Positions 38,901 through 59,900 of a stretch of 64,000 nt of DNA are shown piece after piece. The DNA comes from Phyllobates terribilis. Taxonomy: Eukaryota. Where the stretch lies: positions 134,974,001 through 135,038,000 of the forward strand of contig NW_027362767.1 of assembly GCF_046119375.1 (NCBI RefSeq). The letters run 5' to 3'. Within the stretch, counting starts at the first letter, position 1. Each line of letters starts with the position of its first letter. The position numbers are program-made.

Positions 38901-41900
38901 ACAGCTCAACTACCTTTTCCCGTAGATCCGTTGACAATTCTTTTGCTTTCCTCACAATCCAGAAATGTCAGTGGCGGGATGAAAAATGCAAGAGCCTGTC
39001 TGGATCCCAGAAACTCACTCAGCTTTTATACACACACACTGATTACAAGCAAACAGGTCACAGGTGAGGATGTTAGCTTTAGTAGCCATTCAAACCCATT
39101 TGTGTCAAATTCTGAGCATGTTATCAGGCCAAAATCACCAGGGTATGTGAACCTTTGATCAGGGTCATTTGGTTGTCATTAAGATTTAAAAAGAGAAAAC
39201 ACAGTAGTTTGACAATAAATGGCTTCACCCAACCAATAACCATGAGTGGAGAAAACAAAAAAACTTTATCATTCATATTCCCTGAAACAAGGCCAGGAAA
39301 GGAAAAATTCTGCCGGGGTATGTAAACTTTTGAGTACAACTTGTATATCCTGCAGATTATTACACCACTGACCTCTCTGCAGAACTTCGCTCCTCCACCT
39401 CCTCATAGATACAGGTGCATCTCACTAAGTTAGAATATCATCAAAAATTTAATTTATTTCAGTTCTTCACTTTTTGTATTGAAATACTGAATATTGAAAT
39501 AAATTAACTTTTTGATATTCTAATTTAGTGAGATACACCTGTACATAGTGATATATCCTGCAGATTATTACACCACTGACCTCTCTGCAGAATATCGCTC
39601 CTCCACCTCCTGACAGATACATAGTGATTATATATATTTTGCCAGCACAGGGGTGATGGTTTGCAGGGCCAGTGATTAACCCTCTGTGTCCTGTCCCCCA
39701 GGCGGTGGCTCTCGGAGAACTGCTGGAGTATAACCAGGATCGGGCCATGGCTGTGGAGAAGAAGGCCGTGCAGGTGCCGCGGGTGAGGACTGCGCCAGGA
39801 CCCCACATTGTGTAAGCTTAGGTTTTCTCGCCCAGTGAGCTGACCGTCTATTCTCTGCACAGTGTGACATGGGGGAGCGTTGCGCCATGAAGCACGGACC
39901 CCGGATTGGGAAGCTGTGTGACTGCCTGCGTGGAGCCTCCTGCAACTCCTTCATGCTGCGCTGCTACTAGGCTCGGGGCCACACGTCTGCCCATTATACC
40001 TCTCCCTGTAGCCCCCTATATCTCCGTCTCCCCATGTTTTACTGTTCTGCCCGATACATGACCTCATAGAGGGGTCCCCACATCTGTGTCGCCCCTATGG
40101 GCTCTACAGACCCCAATACTCCACGTCTGATTGTGAGGGTCCAGAGGTGTCAGATACCAGAGAACAACAGCCCCCCTCCACCCGCTATCAGCCTGGATGT
40201 GTTTTATATGATGCTTTGTATGATAATAAAAGATTATTACCTCTGCAATCATCTGTGCTGCTGTGACAAATGTGCAGACACACAGGTTTTGTCTAATCTA
40301 TTCACGGGCACTAACTCCTTTTTCAAACAAACTATTAATATTTTCAAACCTGATAAATGAAAACTGGATAGGGAAGGGAAAAGGGAAAAGAAAGGAAAAA
40401 AACTCAAGTAGACTTCCTTCCTTGGTTTAATAGGGAACTACTGCACAGTACTACTCTGTGTCTTCCCGGACTGAGAGTCCGCAGTTCTCTGAGCCGGGTG
40501 TCAAGCTGACAGCCGACTCGGAGAAGCTGCAGCGCGCCGGCTCCCAGTGTTCAATTGTAGTCGCATCCTTCAGACACGAGTACAATTGAAGCTCTGACCG
40601 CCGGGTCAGAGAGTCGCTAGCAGCGTGATCAGGTCATGTGATCACACTGCTGACGTCACTCGCTGGCGCAGCAGACAGAGGCGCCAACGGTGGTAAGTGC
40701 TCTGTGCTCAAGACACTGAAGATGGGGGGGGGTATTTACTGCAGGGGGGTATAATTACTGCCTGGGAGTGTATTCTCTGCGAGGGGGTGTATTCACTGCA
40801 AGGGGAGTGTATTCACTGGAGGGGGTGTATAATTACTGCATGGGGGGGATAATTACTGTAGGGGGGTATAATTACTGCAGAGGGGTGTATTTACTGCAGG
40901 AGGTGTTTATTCACTGCAGGGGGCGTATAATTACTGCAGGGGGGTGTATTTACTACAGGAGGGGTATTTACTGCTTGGGGGTGTAGTTACTGCTTGTGTG
41001 TGGGGGGTATTTACTGCGTGTGTGTGAGGAGGTATTTACTGTGGTGGGGGAGATTTAGTGTAACGAGGGGGTAATATGAGGACACAAGTTTGGGGAGCAA
41101 AGAAGGGACAGGTGCAGACACAATATGGGGAGAGGGAGAAATTTGAAGACACAGTATGAGGAGCAAGGGGTGAGATGGGGGGCATTTATGGGGGGATTGG
41201 TGTAGACACAGTATGGTGAGTGGGGGGGATGGGTGGGGACACAGTATGAGGAGTGAGGGGAAAATGTATGTGAACACAATTTGGGGAGCGAGGCTGATGG
41301 GATGAGTGCGGACACAGTATGGGGAGTTGGGGGGATTTGTGAGAAGGCCGTATGGAAAGTGAGAGGCTAAATGTGTGAGAAGACTATTGAGGGGATTAGT
41401 GTGAGGAGACAGTATGGGGGAAGAAAAGTGTGAGTGGGCACAGAATAGAGACTGGGTAGTGTGGGGGATAGCATGGGGGAACAGTGTAAGGTCACAGCCA
41501 GGAGGGGACAGTATGCCAATTAGGGAGAGTGTGGTGAGGGGGCACAGTATAGAGACTGGGCCCTATTGGGGGGATCCAGTGTGAGAGGACAGTGTGAAGA
41601 GAGGCCAAATATAGAAAGGAGAGAGCAGTGTGAAGGGCATGTACCATAAGAGGGACAGTGTGTGGGTCATATTTTCTGCAGGGAATATAGTGAGGGGGGC
41701 AATTATTTATTCAGGGGCTCAGCGTAGGGCAGATATTTTTATTCAGGAGCATTATAATGACGCTGCTATTTTTAAGGGCATCATGTCGCGATGTGCTGCA
41801 GATGACTGGAGAAGATGGAAGTCTACTGAGACGGCTGTGGATGAGAAAAGTCATCATGGAGTATGGACAAGATGAAGAAGAAAAGAAAGAGAACGGCTCC

Positions 41901-56900: not shown

Positions 56901-59900
56901 TTGTCCTAGTAATAGAGCTCATCCCAGCACCAGTCTCAGAGCTTGTCCTAGTAATAGAGCTCATCCCAGCACTAGAGCACTAGTCTCAGAGATTGTCCCA
57001 GCACCAGTCTCGGAGCTTGTCCTAGTAACAGAGCTCATCCCAGCACTAGAGCACTAGTCTCAGAGATTGTCCCAGCACCAGTCTCGGAGCTTGTCCTAGT
57101 AACAGAGCTCGTCCCAGCACCAGTCTCAGAGCTTGTCCCAGTAACAGAGCTCATCCCAGCACCAGTCTCAGAGCTTGTCCCAGTAACAGAGCTCATCCCA
57201 GCACCAGTCTCAGAGCTTGTCCCAGTAACAGAGCTCATCCCAGCACCAGTTTCAGAGCTTGTCCTAGTAACAGAGCTCGTCCCAGCACCAGTCTCAGAGC
57301 TTGTCCTAGTAACAGAGCTCATCCCAGCACCAGTTTCAGAGCTTGTCCTAGTAACAGAGCTCGTCCCAGCACCAGTCTCAGAGCTTGTCCTAGTAACAGA
57401 GCTCATCCCAGCACCAGTTTCAGAGCTTGTCCTAGTAACAGAGCTCATCCCAGCACCAGTTTCAGAGCTTGTCCTAGTAACAGAGCTCGTCCCAGCACCA
57501 GTCTCAGAGCTTGTCCTAGTAACAGAGCTCATCCCAGCACCAGTCTCGGAGCTTGTCCTAGTAACAGAGCTCATCCCAGCACTAGAGCACTAGTCTCAGA
57601 GATTGTCCCAGTAACAGAGCTCATCCCAGCACCAGTCTCAGAGCTTGTCCCAGTAACAGAGCTCATCCCAGCACCAGTCTCAGAGCTTGTCCCAGTAACA
57701 GAGCTCATCCCAGCACCAGTCTCAGAGCTTGTCCTAGTAACAGAGATCATCCCAGCACTAGAGCACTAGTCTCAGAGATTGTCCCAGCACCATAGCTCGT
57801 CCCAGCATGAGTCTCAGAGATCTGACCAGCAAAAGTCCCAGAACCTGTCCCAACACCAGTCCCAGAGCTTATCCCAGCACCCGAGCTTGTCCCAGCAGCA
57901 GTGCTTGTCCCAGTACCAGTCCCCAGCTTGCACAGCATCAGTCACAAACTGCACAGCACCAGTCCCAGACCTTGTCACAGCACCAATCTCATTGATTGTC
58001 CCAGTAACAGAGCTCATCCCAGCACCAGTCCCAGAAATTATTCCAGCGTGTCTCAGCACTTGTCGTAGCAACAGTCCCACAACCTGCCCAGCATCCGTAA
58101 CAGAAAGTGCACAGCACTAGTCCCAGGCCTTGTCCCAGCGCAAGTCCCAGAGCACGTTGTAGCACCAGTCCTAGAGCTTGTCCCAGCACCAGAGCTTGTT
58201 CCAGTCCTAATCTTAGAGCTTGCCCCAGCACCAGTCCCACAGCCTGCCCACCATCAGTCACAGAAACTGCACTGCACCAGTCTCAGAGTTCTTCCTAGCA
58301 CCAGTGCCAGAGCCTGCCCAGTCCCAGGTCTGATACAAGCACCAGTGACAGAGCCTGACCAACGCCAGTCCCATAGCCTGGCCAGGGCCAGTAACAGATC
58401 CTGCCCAGTGTAACAGAGCTTGTCCCAGCACGGGTCTCAGAGCTCGTCCCAGCACGGGTCTCAGAGCTCGTCCCAGCACGGGTCTCAGAGCTCGTCCCAG
58501 CACGGGTCTCAGAGCTCGTCCCAGCACGGGTCTCAGAGCTCGTCCCAGCACGGGTCTCAGAGCTCGTCCCAGCACGGGTCTCAGAGCTCGTCCCAGCACG
58601 GGTCTCAGAGCTCGTCCCAGCAAGGGTCTCAGAGCTCGTCCCAGCACGGGTCTCAGAGCTTGCCCAGTCCCAGGGCCGATCTAAGCACCAGTGACAGAGC
58701 CTGACCAACACTAGTCCCAGAGCCTGCCCAGTACCAGTAAGAGAGCCTGCCCATTACCAGTAACAGAGCCTGCCCAGTACCAGTAACAGTGGCTGCCCAT
58801 TACCAGTACCAATGCTCTTCACTGTACCAATCGCACAGCCCATCCCAGCAATCACCCAGCCTGTCCCCGCAGCAGTCCCTGCACTGCTCCAGCAGGGCTT
58901 TCCTATGATAATGTATTGGCTGCAAGGCTCTGTAGTAGTCATGGACATGTACGATGCACCTTGCTGACTGTTTCCACTGTTACAGCTTCTGGAGCTACAA
59001 GACGTTCTGTACAAACTGCAATCCAAGCGGAGTTCGTTCTGGGAGAGCAAATATATTCAGCTACCCAAGGTAAGCATCACCATACAAAGCGAGGAGGGGG
59101 GGTGTCATAGCAGCACTGAGTATTTTAGATTAGTGTGCTCATCTTATTATCTAATTGTATAGTGGCATGGGGCAGAATGCTAGAAGCACAAGAGTATTTA
59201 AGTGAACCTTTCTCTTATTATTTCATTTCTCAGTGCATTATGGGAGATGCCTGTGCGGTGAAGCGAGGAGCACGGATAGGAAAGCTGTGCGACTGCCCCC
59301 AGCGTAGCACCTGCAGCTACTTCTTCATGAGATGTCTCTGAGGCGCCCCCTCTGCTCACAGCAAGGACTCACGTCTTCCGAGAAGACTTGTGGAGAGCCG
59401 CGACCTGACGCCAAGGGCAGCGTTACCGCTTATCTCACGCCGCTCCGCTTATCCGCGGCTGCACTGACTATTTCTCATTACACAGAATGACCTACAGGTG
59501 ATTACGGTGCAATCATCTCTCCCCGGGACCTGTATATAATCCCCTGCCATGTACGAGATTATCCACAGACCCCCAACCCCAGCACCGAGGGAAGGAATAC
59601 AATATTTTATATATAATTATCTTGTGTCTGACTCCATCTTATCAGTCATCACAACATCCGAGGATCGGTCCCTGCTCCAGAGCTGCGCTCACTATTCTGC
59701 TGGCGTGTCACTGTGTACATACATTACATTACTGATCCTGTACTGATCCTGAGTTACATCCTGTAGTATACTCCAGAGCTGCACTCACTATTCTGCTGGC
59801 GTGTCTCTGTGTACATACATTACATTACTGATCCTGTACTGATCCTGAGTTACATCCTGTATTATACTCCAGAGCTGCACTCACTATTCTGCTGGTGCAG

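What the first reader, a model, noticed from the sequence alone, without database searches (positions are those of the whole stretch)
39702..59069. Complementary retention of convertase sites between the two CART paralogs
Mammalian proCART is cut at KR to give CART55-102 and at KK to give CART62-102 (established). Paralog A lacks the KR (..NQDRAMAVEKK|AVQ) but keeps KK; paralog B keeps KR (LQSKR|SS) but has WESKY in place of YEKKY (seen). Inference: each gene makes only one of the two peptide length classes, i.e. processing was subfunctionalised.
Basis: partly seen in the sequence, partly recalled or inferred. Interest (0 to 1): 0.65.

Follow-up and report, generated by a model that had tools for sequence, protein, structure and literature searches.

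The report
Two frog CART genes, single cut-sites
Two neighbouring appetite-peptide (CART) genes of a poison frog each keep only one of the two usual cutting sites, but the two losses lie hundreds of millions of years apart, so this looks like ordinary family variation and not a tidy division of labour.

Summary
The window is frog DNA, from Phyllobates terribilis or a near relative, and holds two intact three-exon CART genes 15 kb apart on the + strand. Their exon translations tile two RefSeq proteins exactly.

- **Paralog A** (37250-39970) ends in RCY. This is the "CART5" type of Cai 2015, which NCBI calls "cart4". Its only propeptide dibasic site is KK, which predicts a 41-residue peptide.
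- **Paralog B** (55341-59341) is closest to reptile and salamander "CART6". Its only propeptide dibasic site is KR, which predicts a 48-residue peptide.

The pattern holds in relatives. All 27 RCY-type sequences lack the first site and keep the second. All 17 anuran B-type sequences (16 species) keep the first and have xK at the second.

The subfunctionalisation reading is only partly supported:
- A's loss is shared with the KCI-type sister group (bootstrap 200/200), so it is very old.
- B's loss is anuran-only: salamander, lungfish, bichir and nearly all reptile CART6-like proteins keep KK.
- Frogs also carry CART1-type genes with both sites.
- First-site loss is common across the family.

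No peptide-level data were available. Interest is modest.

The parts
37250..37411 (+). Paralog A, exon 1: start codon, signal region and start of the propeptide (54 codons)
   Evidence: 100% tblastn match to residues 1-54 of P0006. Exact tiling and a GTGAGT donor. A TATA-like TATATATAAG lies about 45 bases upstream (by eye).
39702..39782 (+). Paralog A, exon 2: rest of the propeptide and start of the mature peptide (27 codons)
   Evidence: equals P0006 residues 55-81. Pfam CART profile positions 10-34, 12.9 bits, below the cut-off on its own.
39738..39743 (+). A, position of the first convertase site: Asp-Arg, not dibasic
   Evidence: Counting back from Cys1, this position is DR, DN, DK, GQ, AR, GR, DG, ER or QI in the 21 regular A-type models.
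39759..39764 (+). A, second convertase site Lys-Lys (K74K75 of P0006), the only propeptide dibasic pair; cutting after it leaves 41 residues
   Evidence: The site is KK (18), KR (2) or RR (1) in 21 of 21 regular A-type models.
39863..39970 (+). Paralog A, exon 3: six-cysteine CART domain ending in RCY, plus the stop codon
   Evidence: Pfam CART 67 bits. PDB 1HY9 E=1.1e-13. Exact tiling of P0006 residues 82-116.
55341..55487 (+). Paralog B, exon 1: signal region and start of the propeptide. The RefSeq model starts at 55341; a second in-frame ATG at 55353 is the start used in other dendrobatid models.
   Evidence: equals P0150 residues 1-49; GTGAGT donor.
58986..59069 (+). Paralog B, exon 2 (28 codons)
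   Evidence: equals P0150 residues 50-77. Pfam CART positions 10-34, 16.1 bits.
59025..59030 (+). B, first convertase site Lys-Arg (K63R64 of P0150), the only propeptide dibasic pair; cutting after it leaves 48 residues
   Evidence: The site is dibasic in 17 of 17 anuran B-type sequences: KR 15, KK 1, RR 1.
59046..59051 (+). B, position of the second site: Ser-Lys in place of Lys-Lys
   Evidence: The site is xK (x = S, G, A, T, L or I) in 17 of 17 anuran B-type sequences, and the Lys is kept in all 17.
59234..59341 (+). Paralog B, exon 3: six-cysteine CART domain ending in RCL, plus the stop codon
   Evidence: Pfam CART 49.9 bits. PDB 1HY9 E=2.8e-11. Exact tiling of P0150 residues 78-112.

Best explanation
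The window holds an old tandem pair of CART neuropeptide genes of a dendrobatid frog. A is the RCY type ("CART5" of Cai et al. 2015; "cart4" in NCBI and zebrafish naming). B is the anuran form of the gene type that Cai et al. called CART6. Both look like working prohormone genes. Inferred mechanism: each precursor enters the secretory pathway, folds its three-disulfide C-terminal domain, and is cut by prohormone convertases at its single propeptide dibasic site. A is cut after Lys-Lys and gives a 41-residue peptide of the short class. In rats this cut is attributed mainly to PC2. B is cut after Lys-Arg and gives a 48-residue peptide of the long class. The complementary look comes from two unrelated events. 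The first site was lost very early, in the common ancestor of the RCY and KCI gene types. The second site was lost much later, in the CART6 lineage of frogs only, after frogs separated from salamanders. This is not a reciprocal partition made when the two genes were young duplicates. Frogs still carry CART1-type genes with both sites. Shown here: gene structures, sites, their conservation and their distribution. Inferred: the cleavages, the enzymes and the products.
For: Gene models: each exon's translation tiles RefSeq proteins P0006 and P0150 exactly, and splice sites are canonical. Family: Pfam CART 67 and 49.9 bits. PDB 1HY9 E=1e-13 and 3e-11 with all six cysteines aligned. 1HY9 is the top fold match for the B model (E=0.03, TM 0.69 on the target). 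Sites: a rule-based listing finds one propeptide dibasic pair in each precursor, giving products of 41 and 48 residues. Conservation: RCY type 27/27 lack the first site and keep the second. Anuran B type 17/17 (16 species) keep the first site and have xK at the second. Age of A's loss: RCY+KCI clade 200/200 bootstrap, and KCI type 9/12 have the same state. Age of B's loss: non-anuran CART6-like sequences have KK at the second site in 30/30 named cases, and so does Pleurodeles P0155. Ancestral state: 76/77 other named CARTs, including two lampreys, have both sites. Redundancy: frog CART1-type proteins have both sites. Tandem linkage elsewhere: the A-type and B-type proteins of Leptodactylus fuscus both report a contig of 447,270 bases. 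The same holds for Hyperolius, Aquarana and Ranitomeya. Cai 2015 Table 1 places coelacanth CART5 and CART6 on one scaffold. Old divergence of A and B: exon 3 is 68/108 nt and 19/35 aa identical. Literature (passages read): cleavage at K40R41 and K47K48 by PC1/3 and PC2 (PMC3602189); PC2 is efficient for the small forms (PMC4436185); zebrafish cart5 is expressed in preoptic and hypothalamic neurons (bioRxiv 10.1101/2023.03.29.534505).
Against: No peptide or expression data for either frog gene could be reached, so the products are predictions. B's orthology to CART6 has only moderate tree support: anuran B + Pleurodeles + reptile CART6 105/200, and Pleurodeles as sister to anuran B only 7/200, on 63 columns with neighbour joining. 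The surviving Lys at B's second site is kept in 17/17 sequences and has Arg at P8, so a monobasic cut is not excluded. One turtle CART6-like protein (Macrochelys, P0156) also lacks a dibasic second site, so the loss is not strictly unique to frogs. No B-type gene was seen from the earliest-branching frogs or from caecilians, so the date of the loss is bounded only loosely. A's pro-region shows no significant amphipathic 14-mer, unlike CART1, so its sorting to convertase-containing granules is an assumption. The AlphaFold models are of low confidence (mean pLDDT 53.5 for A and 68.7 for B).
Confidence: 0.7

Rival explanations
1. One reading: the production of long and short CART peptides, once done by one gene, was divided between the two tandem copies by complementary loss of sites. 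Both genes are kept because each now supplies one length class.
For: The states are complementary and stable across 16 anuran species for B and across all A-type sequences. The family's ancestral state very probably had both sites: 76/77 other named CARTs, including lampreys. The clade-wide loss of the second site in CART6-like genes is seen in a lineage that still has an A-type gene. Named turtles and squamates keep KK in 26/26 sequences, and Cai 2015 lists no CART5 for turtles.
Against: The two losses are separated by the whole span from before the RCY/KCI split to the frog stem. A salamander, a lungfish and a bichir have an A-type gene and still keep both sites in their CART6-like gene. Frogs keep CART1-type genes with both sites, so neither A nor B is needed to supply a length class. 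The mature peptides differ at 16 of 35 domain positions, so they are not two lengths of one peptide. First-site loss recurs independently in other CART types, 28/124.
Confidence: 0.15
2. B still makes both length classes. The retained single Lys (WESK|Y) works as a monobasic cleavage site, so only the sequence motif changed and not the processing.
For: The Lys is invariant in 17/17 anuran B-type sequences while its former partner varies freely among S, G, A, T, L and I. Arg lies at P8 relative to it. Cai 2015 discusses monobasic cuts in proCART1.
Against: Monobasic convertase sites usually have Arg, not Lys, at P1 (general knowledge, recalled). The Lys, with Trp and Glu before it, is equally conserved in relatives where it is part of KK. 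It may therefore be kept as part of the mature long peptide (invariant columns W68 and K71).
Confidence: 0.1
3. One of the two genes is an unexpressed or decaying copy, and its missing site is simply decay.
For: Cai 2015 found chicken CART2, another single-site paralogue, only weakly expressed and doubted its role. B's intron 1 is filled by a 3-kb minisatellite, and the intergenic space holds satellites and transposon remnants.
Against: Both reading frames, all splice sites and all six cysteines are intact here and in every orthologue examined. The exon 3s score well above the Pfam cut-off. The A-type orthologue is brain-expressed in zebrafish.
Confidence: 0.05

Closest known systems
Mammalian and avian CART1 (CARTPT) precursor and its processing
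   Same: Three-exon gene, signal peptide, helical pro-region, and a C-terminal domain with six cysteines at identical spacing. Convertase sites lie at fixed distances (15/14 and 8/7 residues) before the first cysteine.
   Different: CART1 has both KR and KK and gives both length classes (passages in PMC4195273, PMC3602189 and PMC4436185). A has only the second site and B only the first. The domains differ from 1HY9 at roughly a third to two fifths of positions.
CART5/CART6 tandem pair of coelacanth and the six-gene CART nomenclature (Cai et al. 2015, PMC4436185; sections 17 and 25 read, plus passages)
   Same: A carries the C-terminal RCY that the paper names as the CART5 signature. B clusters with the python and turtle proteins of the species and lengths listed there as CART6. 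The two genes are adjacent, as CART5 and CART6 share one coelacanth scaffold. The paper already says that proCARTs carry "KR and/or KK".
   Different: The paper lists only CART1-4 for Xenopus tropicalis and no frog CART5 or CART6. In the text I could read, it does not mention a frog-specific loss of the second site. Its alignments of CART5 and CART6 are in supplementary figures that I could not open.
Chicken CART2 and other single-site CART paralogues
   Same: A CART precursor predicted to give only one bioactive peptide because one site is missing (abstract of PMC4436185). In my census, 28 of 124 other CART segments lack the first site only.
   Different: Those cases, like A, lack the first site. 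B lacks the second, which is rare: outside anuran B only three clear cases (cod, a carp, a duck) and one turtle.
Division of peptide domains between duplicated POMC genes of teleosts (de Souza et al. 2005; seen only as an entry in the reference list of PMC4992253, content recalled)
   Same: The idea that duplicated prohormone genes can divide up the peptides that one precursor used to make.
   Different: There the duplicates come from one dated genome duplication and lost complementary peptide domains. Here the two losses differ greatly in age, and other paralogues still cover both products.

Membership tests
CART prepropeptide family (Pfam PF06373) | Match to the family profile above the curated cut-off | tested here: met
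   Exon 3 of A 67 bits and of B 49.9 bits (cut-off 27). The exon 2s align to profile positions 10-34 but score below the cut-off alone, at 12.9 and 16.1 bits.
CART prepropeptide family (Pfam PF06373) | Six cysteines spaced C-5-C-11-C-1-C-5-C-6-C near the C-terminus | tested here: met
   The pattern is found in P0006 and P0150, the RefSeq proteins that the window's exons tile, and in 144 of the first 145 relatives. The exception has one extra residue in the first loop.
CART prepropeptide family (Pfam PF06373) | Sequence and fold likeness to the solved CART structure 1HY9 | tested here: met
   phmmer E=1.1e-13 (A) and 2.8e-11 (B). Foldseek top hit for the B model is 1HY9: E=0.03, probability 1.00, TM 0.69 on the target. 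The A model was too poor to search (pLDDT 53.5).
CART prepropeptide family (Pfam PF06373) | Three coding exons, with the cysteine domain starting at the first codon of exon 3 | tested here: met
   Cai 2015 states three exons for all six coelacanth genes.
CART prepropeptide family (Pfam PF06373) | Two dibasic convertase sites before the cysteine domain | tested here: not met
   A has only the second site and B only the first. The family literature already allows "KR and/or KK", so this does not exclude membership.
CART prepropeptide family (Pfam PF06373) | Secreted, processed peptides detectable in tissue | not testable with these tools
   No peptide or expression data were reachable. The hydrophobic N-terminal stretches were seen by eye only.
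RCY-type CART (CART5 of Cai 2015; cart4 of NCBI naming), for A | C-terminal RCY and grouping with named orthologues | tested here: met
   A ends in RCY. Hits named "transcript 4" come from Polypterus and Diretmus. RCY clade 142/200 and RCY+KCI 200/200.
CART6 of Cai 2015, for B | Grouping with reptile and coelacanth CART6, and position next to CART5 | tested here: inconclusive
   Neighbour-joining tree: anuran B + Pleurodeles + reptile CART6-like 105/200, and anuran B alone 184/200. Adjacency to the RCY-type gene is shown in this window. The coelacanth pair on one scaffold is taken from Cai's Table 1. I did not see the genomic context of reptile or salamander genes.
Subfunctionalised duplicates (duplication-degeneration-complementation) | The ancestor performed both subfunctions | tested here: met
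   Both sites are present in 76/77 other named CARTs, including two lampreys. This is an inference about the ancestor.
Subfunctionalised duplicates (duplication-degeneration-complementation) | Complementary losses in the two copies | tested here: met
   A lacks site 1 and B lacks site 2, in frogs only.
Subfunctionalised duplicates (duplication-degeneration-complementation) | The losses are linked: they arise while the copies are redundant, and together they are needed to cover the ancestral role | tested here: not met
   A's loss is shared with the KCI type. B's loss is confined to anurans, although a salamander, a lungfish and a bichir keep both genes with an intact CART6 second site. Frog CART1-type genes keep both sites.

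The most novel reading that the evidence does not exclude
In frogs, and only there, the two classical CART length classes have become genetically separable. The long class would come from CART6 and the short class from CART5, each under its own promoter, in addition to a two-site CART1. If the frog-stem loss of the Lys-Lys site in CART6 was selected and not neutral, frogs would be a natural system. Expression and distribution of a long-only and a short-only CART peptide could then be compared, to ask whether the two length classes have distinct targets. That question is still open in mammals.
Probability: 0.15. Interest if true: 0.55.

Novelty: new variant of a known kind. Interest (0 to 1): 0.3.

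Why it matters
CART peptides are studied in appetite, reward and pituitary biology. Why two length classes exist, and whether they act differently, is unsettled. The main result is corrective: single-site CART precursors are common and old, and the complementary pair seen here comes from two unrelated losses. There are two modest additions to what I could find in print. First, frogs keep an adjacent RCY-type/CART6-type gene pair that the 2015 survey did not list for Xenopus. Second, frog CART6 has lost the second site across the clade, which is rare in the family. That makes it a predicted long-form-only CART precursor that peptide surveys could look for. I base the "not in print" statement on four full-text searches. 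Only Cai 2015 dealt with CART5/CART6, and its supplementary alignments could not be opened.

Tried and rejected
1. I looked for A's first exon by similarity to B's first exon. Nothing scored above noise. It was then found with the orthologue P0006.
2. The palindromic cAMP-response element TGACGTCA gave 2 matches in the window, neither near a promoter. 37 of 100 shuffles gave at least 2, so this says nothing.
3. A Biopython neighbour-joining bootstrap timed out. I replaced it with a numpy version.
4. A protein-atlas search of one piece of the ZCCHC3-like frame gave a best score of 0.82, below the level where a hit means anything. I discarded it.
5. A repeat search of 12-46 kb was swamped by the 41-bp satellite. 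It yielded only five inverted-repeat pairs.
6. The hydrophobic-moment test of the sorting helix was clear for CART1 (0.66-0.70; 28-32 of 1000 shuffles reach it). It was not significant for B (0.49; 374/1000) or for A (0.39; 885/1000). I used it only as a caveat.
7. The AlphaFold models were of low confidence. Only the B model was searched against the PDB.
8. Dey et al. 2003, the primary paper on proCART processing, is not held. Its content is cited through passages of other papers.
9. I considered accession-number adjacency as a stand-in for synteny and rejected it. The two Phyllobates proteins, 15 kb apart, have accessions about 1600 apart.
10. The window's exons were searched one at a time. 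I left out the joined reading as a query. The splice models rest on exact tiling of stored RefSeq proteins.

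
Full report
**What the window is.** The window is 64,000 bases with no N. It is repeat-rich vertebrate DNA, not human. A single-exon LINGO-family gene at 13723-15579 and both CART proteins are found, letter for letter, as RefSeq proteins. The CART proteins are named for Phyllobates terribilis, and all three lie on a contig of 470,593,462 bases. The window therefore comes from the golden poison frog or something indistinguishable from it.

**Checking the observation.**
- Paralog A has exons at 37250-37411, 39702-39782 and 39863-39970.
- Paralog B has exons at 55341-55487, 58986-59069 and 59234-59341.
- Both genes are on the + strand, with GT/AG introns in phase 0.

I searched the exons one by one and left out the joined reading as a query. 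The splice models rest instead on tiling. Each exon's translation covers consecutive, complete stretches of a stored RefSeq protein: P0006 (116 aa; residues 1-54, 55-81, 82-116) for A, and P0150 (112 aa; residues 1-49, 50-77, 78-112) for B.

Both exon 3s pass the Pfam CART cut-off (67 and 49.9 bits against 27). Both exon 2s align to the right part of the profile but are weak alone. Both exon 3s match the solved CART structure 1HY9, at E=1.1e-13 and 2.8e-11. A tblastn of P0006 and P0026 against the window found no third CART-like exon.

**The sites.** I listed every basic residue of P0006 and P0150 with a rule-based script.
- A has one dibasic pair between the signal region and the first cysteine, K74K75. 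Cutting there leaves 41 residues.
- At the position of the first site, A has Asp-Arg, with no basic residue at P4, P6 or P8.
- B has one dibasic pair, K63R64. Cutting there leaves 48 residues.
- At the second site, B has Ser-Lys, with Arg at P8.

The other dibasic pair of B lies inside the disulfide-bonded domain, as in CART1-type proteins.

**Relatives.**
- A search with exon 3 of A returned 25 proteins among 26 candidates. They come from frogs, salamanders, a lungfish, Polypterus and two teleosts. [quoted passage not shown] The query was lengthened by eight contiguous in-frame intron codons to reach the tool's minimum length.
- Exon 3 of B, lengthened by fourteen such codons, returned 5 of 5 candidates, all frogs.
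- A profile of those five returned 304 proteins, of which the best 120 were listed.
- An exhaustive profile search of cluster representatives gave 173 hits, 150 listed and 140 new to the session.
- Of those 140, 31 lacked a complete domain. Seven unnamed ones close to mammalian CART1 were set aside unused. 102 were analysed.

**Census of the sites.** I counted back from the first cysteine, at positions 15/14 and 8/7, over the first 145 proteins.

| Group | n | First site | Second site |
|---|---|---|---|
| Regular A-type models | 21 | not dibasic, 21/21 | dibasic, 21/21 (KK 18, KR 2, RR 1) |
| Anuran B-type (16 species) | 17 | dibasic, 17/17 (KR 15, KK 1, RR 1) | xK, 17/17 |
| Non-anuran CART6-like (8 turtles, 18 squamates, 1 lungfish, 3 bichir/gar/bowfin) | 30 | dibasic, 24/30 | KK, 30/30 |
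| Other CARTs, including two lampreys | 77 | both sites present in 76/77 | |

- Three odd A-type models are offset but still carry EKK or EKR. One is an intron-retaining isoform, and two lack three residues at the exon 2 end.
- The 17 anuran B-type sequences include four dendrobatids and one sequence read by eye.

A looser census ran over 175 unique segments of all 293 stored proteins. It dropped 118: 48 whose upstream part is not exon-2-like, 31 without a full domain, 27 duplicates, 7 set aside, 4 LINGO and 1 too short.
- RCY type: 27/27 have the second site only.
- KCI type: 9/12 have the second site only. I did not inspect the other three individually, and my fixed windows may misplace their site.
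- Anuran B: 12/12 have the first site only.
- Other CARTs (124): 84 have both sites, 28 the second only, 2 the first only, and 10 neither.

Of the 12 "other" segments without a second site, 8 are by eye models that read through an intron. One is a frog B-type sequence filed wrongly. Three are genuine and were named as cod, a carp and a duck. One turtle (Macrochelys, P0156) also lacks both dibasic pairs. My filter had dropped it.

**Which genes these are.** Cai et al. 2015 (PMC4436185; sections 17 and 25 read in full, other parts as passages) make the following points.
- They name six vertebrate CART genes.
- They give C-terminal RCY as the CART5 signature and KCI as the CART4 signature.
- They place coelacanth CART5 and CART6 on one scaffold.
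- They list CART6 for python (107 aa) and turtles.
- They list only CART1-4 for Xenopus tropicalis.
- They state that proCARTs can yield peptides of 41 or 48 residues from "KR and/or KK".

A ends in RCY, so it is their CART5. In a neighbour-joining tree on 63 ungapped columns, anuran B groups with turtle and squamate CART6-like proteins. Bootstrap values over 200 replicates:

| Clade | Support |
|---|---|
| RCY + KCI | 200 |
| KCI | 196 |
| RCY | 142 |
| Anuran B | 184 |
| Anuran B + Pleurodeles + reptile CART6-like | 105 |
| Pleurodeles as sister of anuran B | 7 |

Removing the four site columns changes little. B's assignment to CART6 is therefore the best reading but only moderately supported by the tree. 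Its position next to an RCY-type gene adds to it. A-type and B-type proteins of Leptodactylus fuscus both report a contig of 447,270 bases. Those of Hyperolius, Aquarana and Ranitomeya also share a contig length.

A and B are old paralogues. Their exon 3s share 68 of 108 bases and 19 of 35 residues.

**How it most likely works.** In mammals proCART is cut at K40R41 and K47K48 by PC1/3 and PC2 to give the long and short bioactive peptides (passages of PMC3602189 and PMC4195273). PC2 is efficient for the small forms, and PC1/3 mainly liberates intermediates (passage of PMC4436185 citing Dey et al. 2003; the primary paper is not held). The long form predominates in the anterior pituitary (passage of PMC5042496).

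By analogy, A should give only a 41-residue peptide and B only a 48-residue peptide. This step is inference. I could reach no frog peptide or expression data.

The zebrafish orthologue of A (cart5) is expressed in preoptic and hypothalamic cells (bioRxiv 10.1101/2023.03.29.534505, passages).

One caveat concerns sorting. The amphipathic helix that sorts human proCART to granules (PMC3602189) is strongly amphipathic in CART1-type proteins. It is weaker in B and not detectable in A by a simple hydrophobic-moment test.

AlphaFold models put a helix up to each retained site, but their confidence is low. The B model's best PDB match is 1HY9.

**Why subfunctionalisation is not the best account.**
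- The first-site loss is shared by every RCY-type sequence, from teleosts and bichir to frogs, and by most KCI-type sequences. It therefore arose before those two gene types separated. On Cai's scheme that is before or during the early vertebrate genome duplications.
- The second-site loss in B is confined to frogs. The salamander Pleurodeles has KK at both sites in its CART6-like protein. So do a lungfish and bichir/gar/bowfin at the second site.
- Salamanders (Ambystoma, Lissotriton, Pleurodeles between them), a lungfish and bichirs (Polypterus, Erpetoichthys between them) have both an A-type protein and a CART6-like protein with an intact second site. Having an A-type gene therefore does not by itself go with loss of the second site.
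- Frogs also have CART1-type proteins with both sites and a KCI-type protein.
- Loss of the first site is common in the family.

Whether selection shaped it is open.

**Novelty.** Four full-text searches found only Cai 2015 on CART5/CART6, and nothing on a frog-specific loss of the second site. The genes themselves are annotated in RefSeq as "CART protein-like".

**Surroundings.** The 15 kb between A and B holds the following:
- a LINE-like fragment;
- a 5.4-kb AT-rich 35-bp satellite;
- a retroelement-type, gag-like ZCCHC3-like reading frame in three pieces;
- a Tc1 remnant.

B's first intron is filled by a 3-kb minisatellite. The ZCCHC3-like frame is the only virus-like stretch I found near the genes, and I describe it only.

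Noticed in passing
1-12051: A 21-bp satellite (about 600 copies, 85% matches) with extreme strand skew fills the first 12 kb. Composition is A+C rich: AT skew about 0.74 and GC skew about -0.34.
   Followed up: no
13723-15579 (+): An intact single-exon gene of 618 codons with leucine-rich repeats, one Ig domain and a membrane span. An identical RefSeq protein exists, and cluster mates are named LINGO-family (NOGO-receptor-interacting) proteins in three other dendrobatids.
   Followed up: partly
24360-29353: Two adjacent satellites: a 31-bp unit x 28 copies, then a 41-bp unit x 95 copies at 94-97% identity.
   Followed up: no
29362-31013: A Tc1/mariner-type DNA transposon bounded by 224-base inverted repeats (96% complementary). 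Its transposase frame is in two pieces (Tc3-type HTH, 70.9 bits).
   Followed up: partly
about 32500-35800 (+): A multi-exon CREB3-family bZIP gene lies upstream of paralog A in a GC-rich stretch. A basic-zipper exon scores 39.7 bits for bZIP_1 at 34717-34974. The family assignment beyond bZIP is by eye. A 36-bp GC-rich minisatellite lies just before it at 31270-31868.
   Followed up: partly
39774-39782, and proteins P0002, P0003: Exon 2 of A has a second in-frame GT nine bases before the donor that is used. The models of Anomaloglossus and of one Ranitomeya imitator record lack exactly those three residues (VPR). That would shorten the mature peptide to 38 residues. A Bufo isoform (P0001) instead reads into intron 2.
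   Followed up: no
44033-45427 (-) and 63423-63746 (-): Fragments of non-LTR retrotransposon reverse transcriptase. The second scores 31.9 bits for RVT_1. The first is recognised by eye only and has no Pfam hit.
   Followed up: partly
45839-51220: An AT-rich 35-bp satellite, 152 copies at 94% identity, sits between the two CART genes and drops GC to 0.30.
   Followed up: no
51301-53430 (+): A retroelement-type, gag-like reading frame with the two ZCCHC3 RNA-binding domains (66.9 and 76.5 bits) and CCHC zinc knuckles. It is broken into three pieces by two interruptions of the frame. Described only; an atlas search of one piece gave nothing usable.
   Followed up: partly
53764-54571 (+): A remnant of a second Tc1-type transposase in at least three pieces. 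Its DDE_3 match scores 24.2 bits, below the cut-off.
   Followed up: no
55688-58667: A 3-kb minisatellite of 24/42-bp units fills most of intron 1 of paralog B and creates long spurious ORFs on both strands.
   Followed up: no
P0006 residues 26-81 (window 37325-39782, exons only): The pro-region of A has no significantly amphipathic 14-residue window (0.39; 885 of 1000 shuffles reach it). CART1-type proteins have one at the homologous place (0.66-0.70; 28-32 of 1000), and B has a weaker one (0.49). This raises the question of how A is sorted to secretory granules.
   Followed up: partly
59675-61212: Tandem 91-bp and related repeats, about 12 copies, lie just downstream of paralog B.
   Followed up: no
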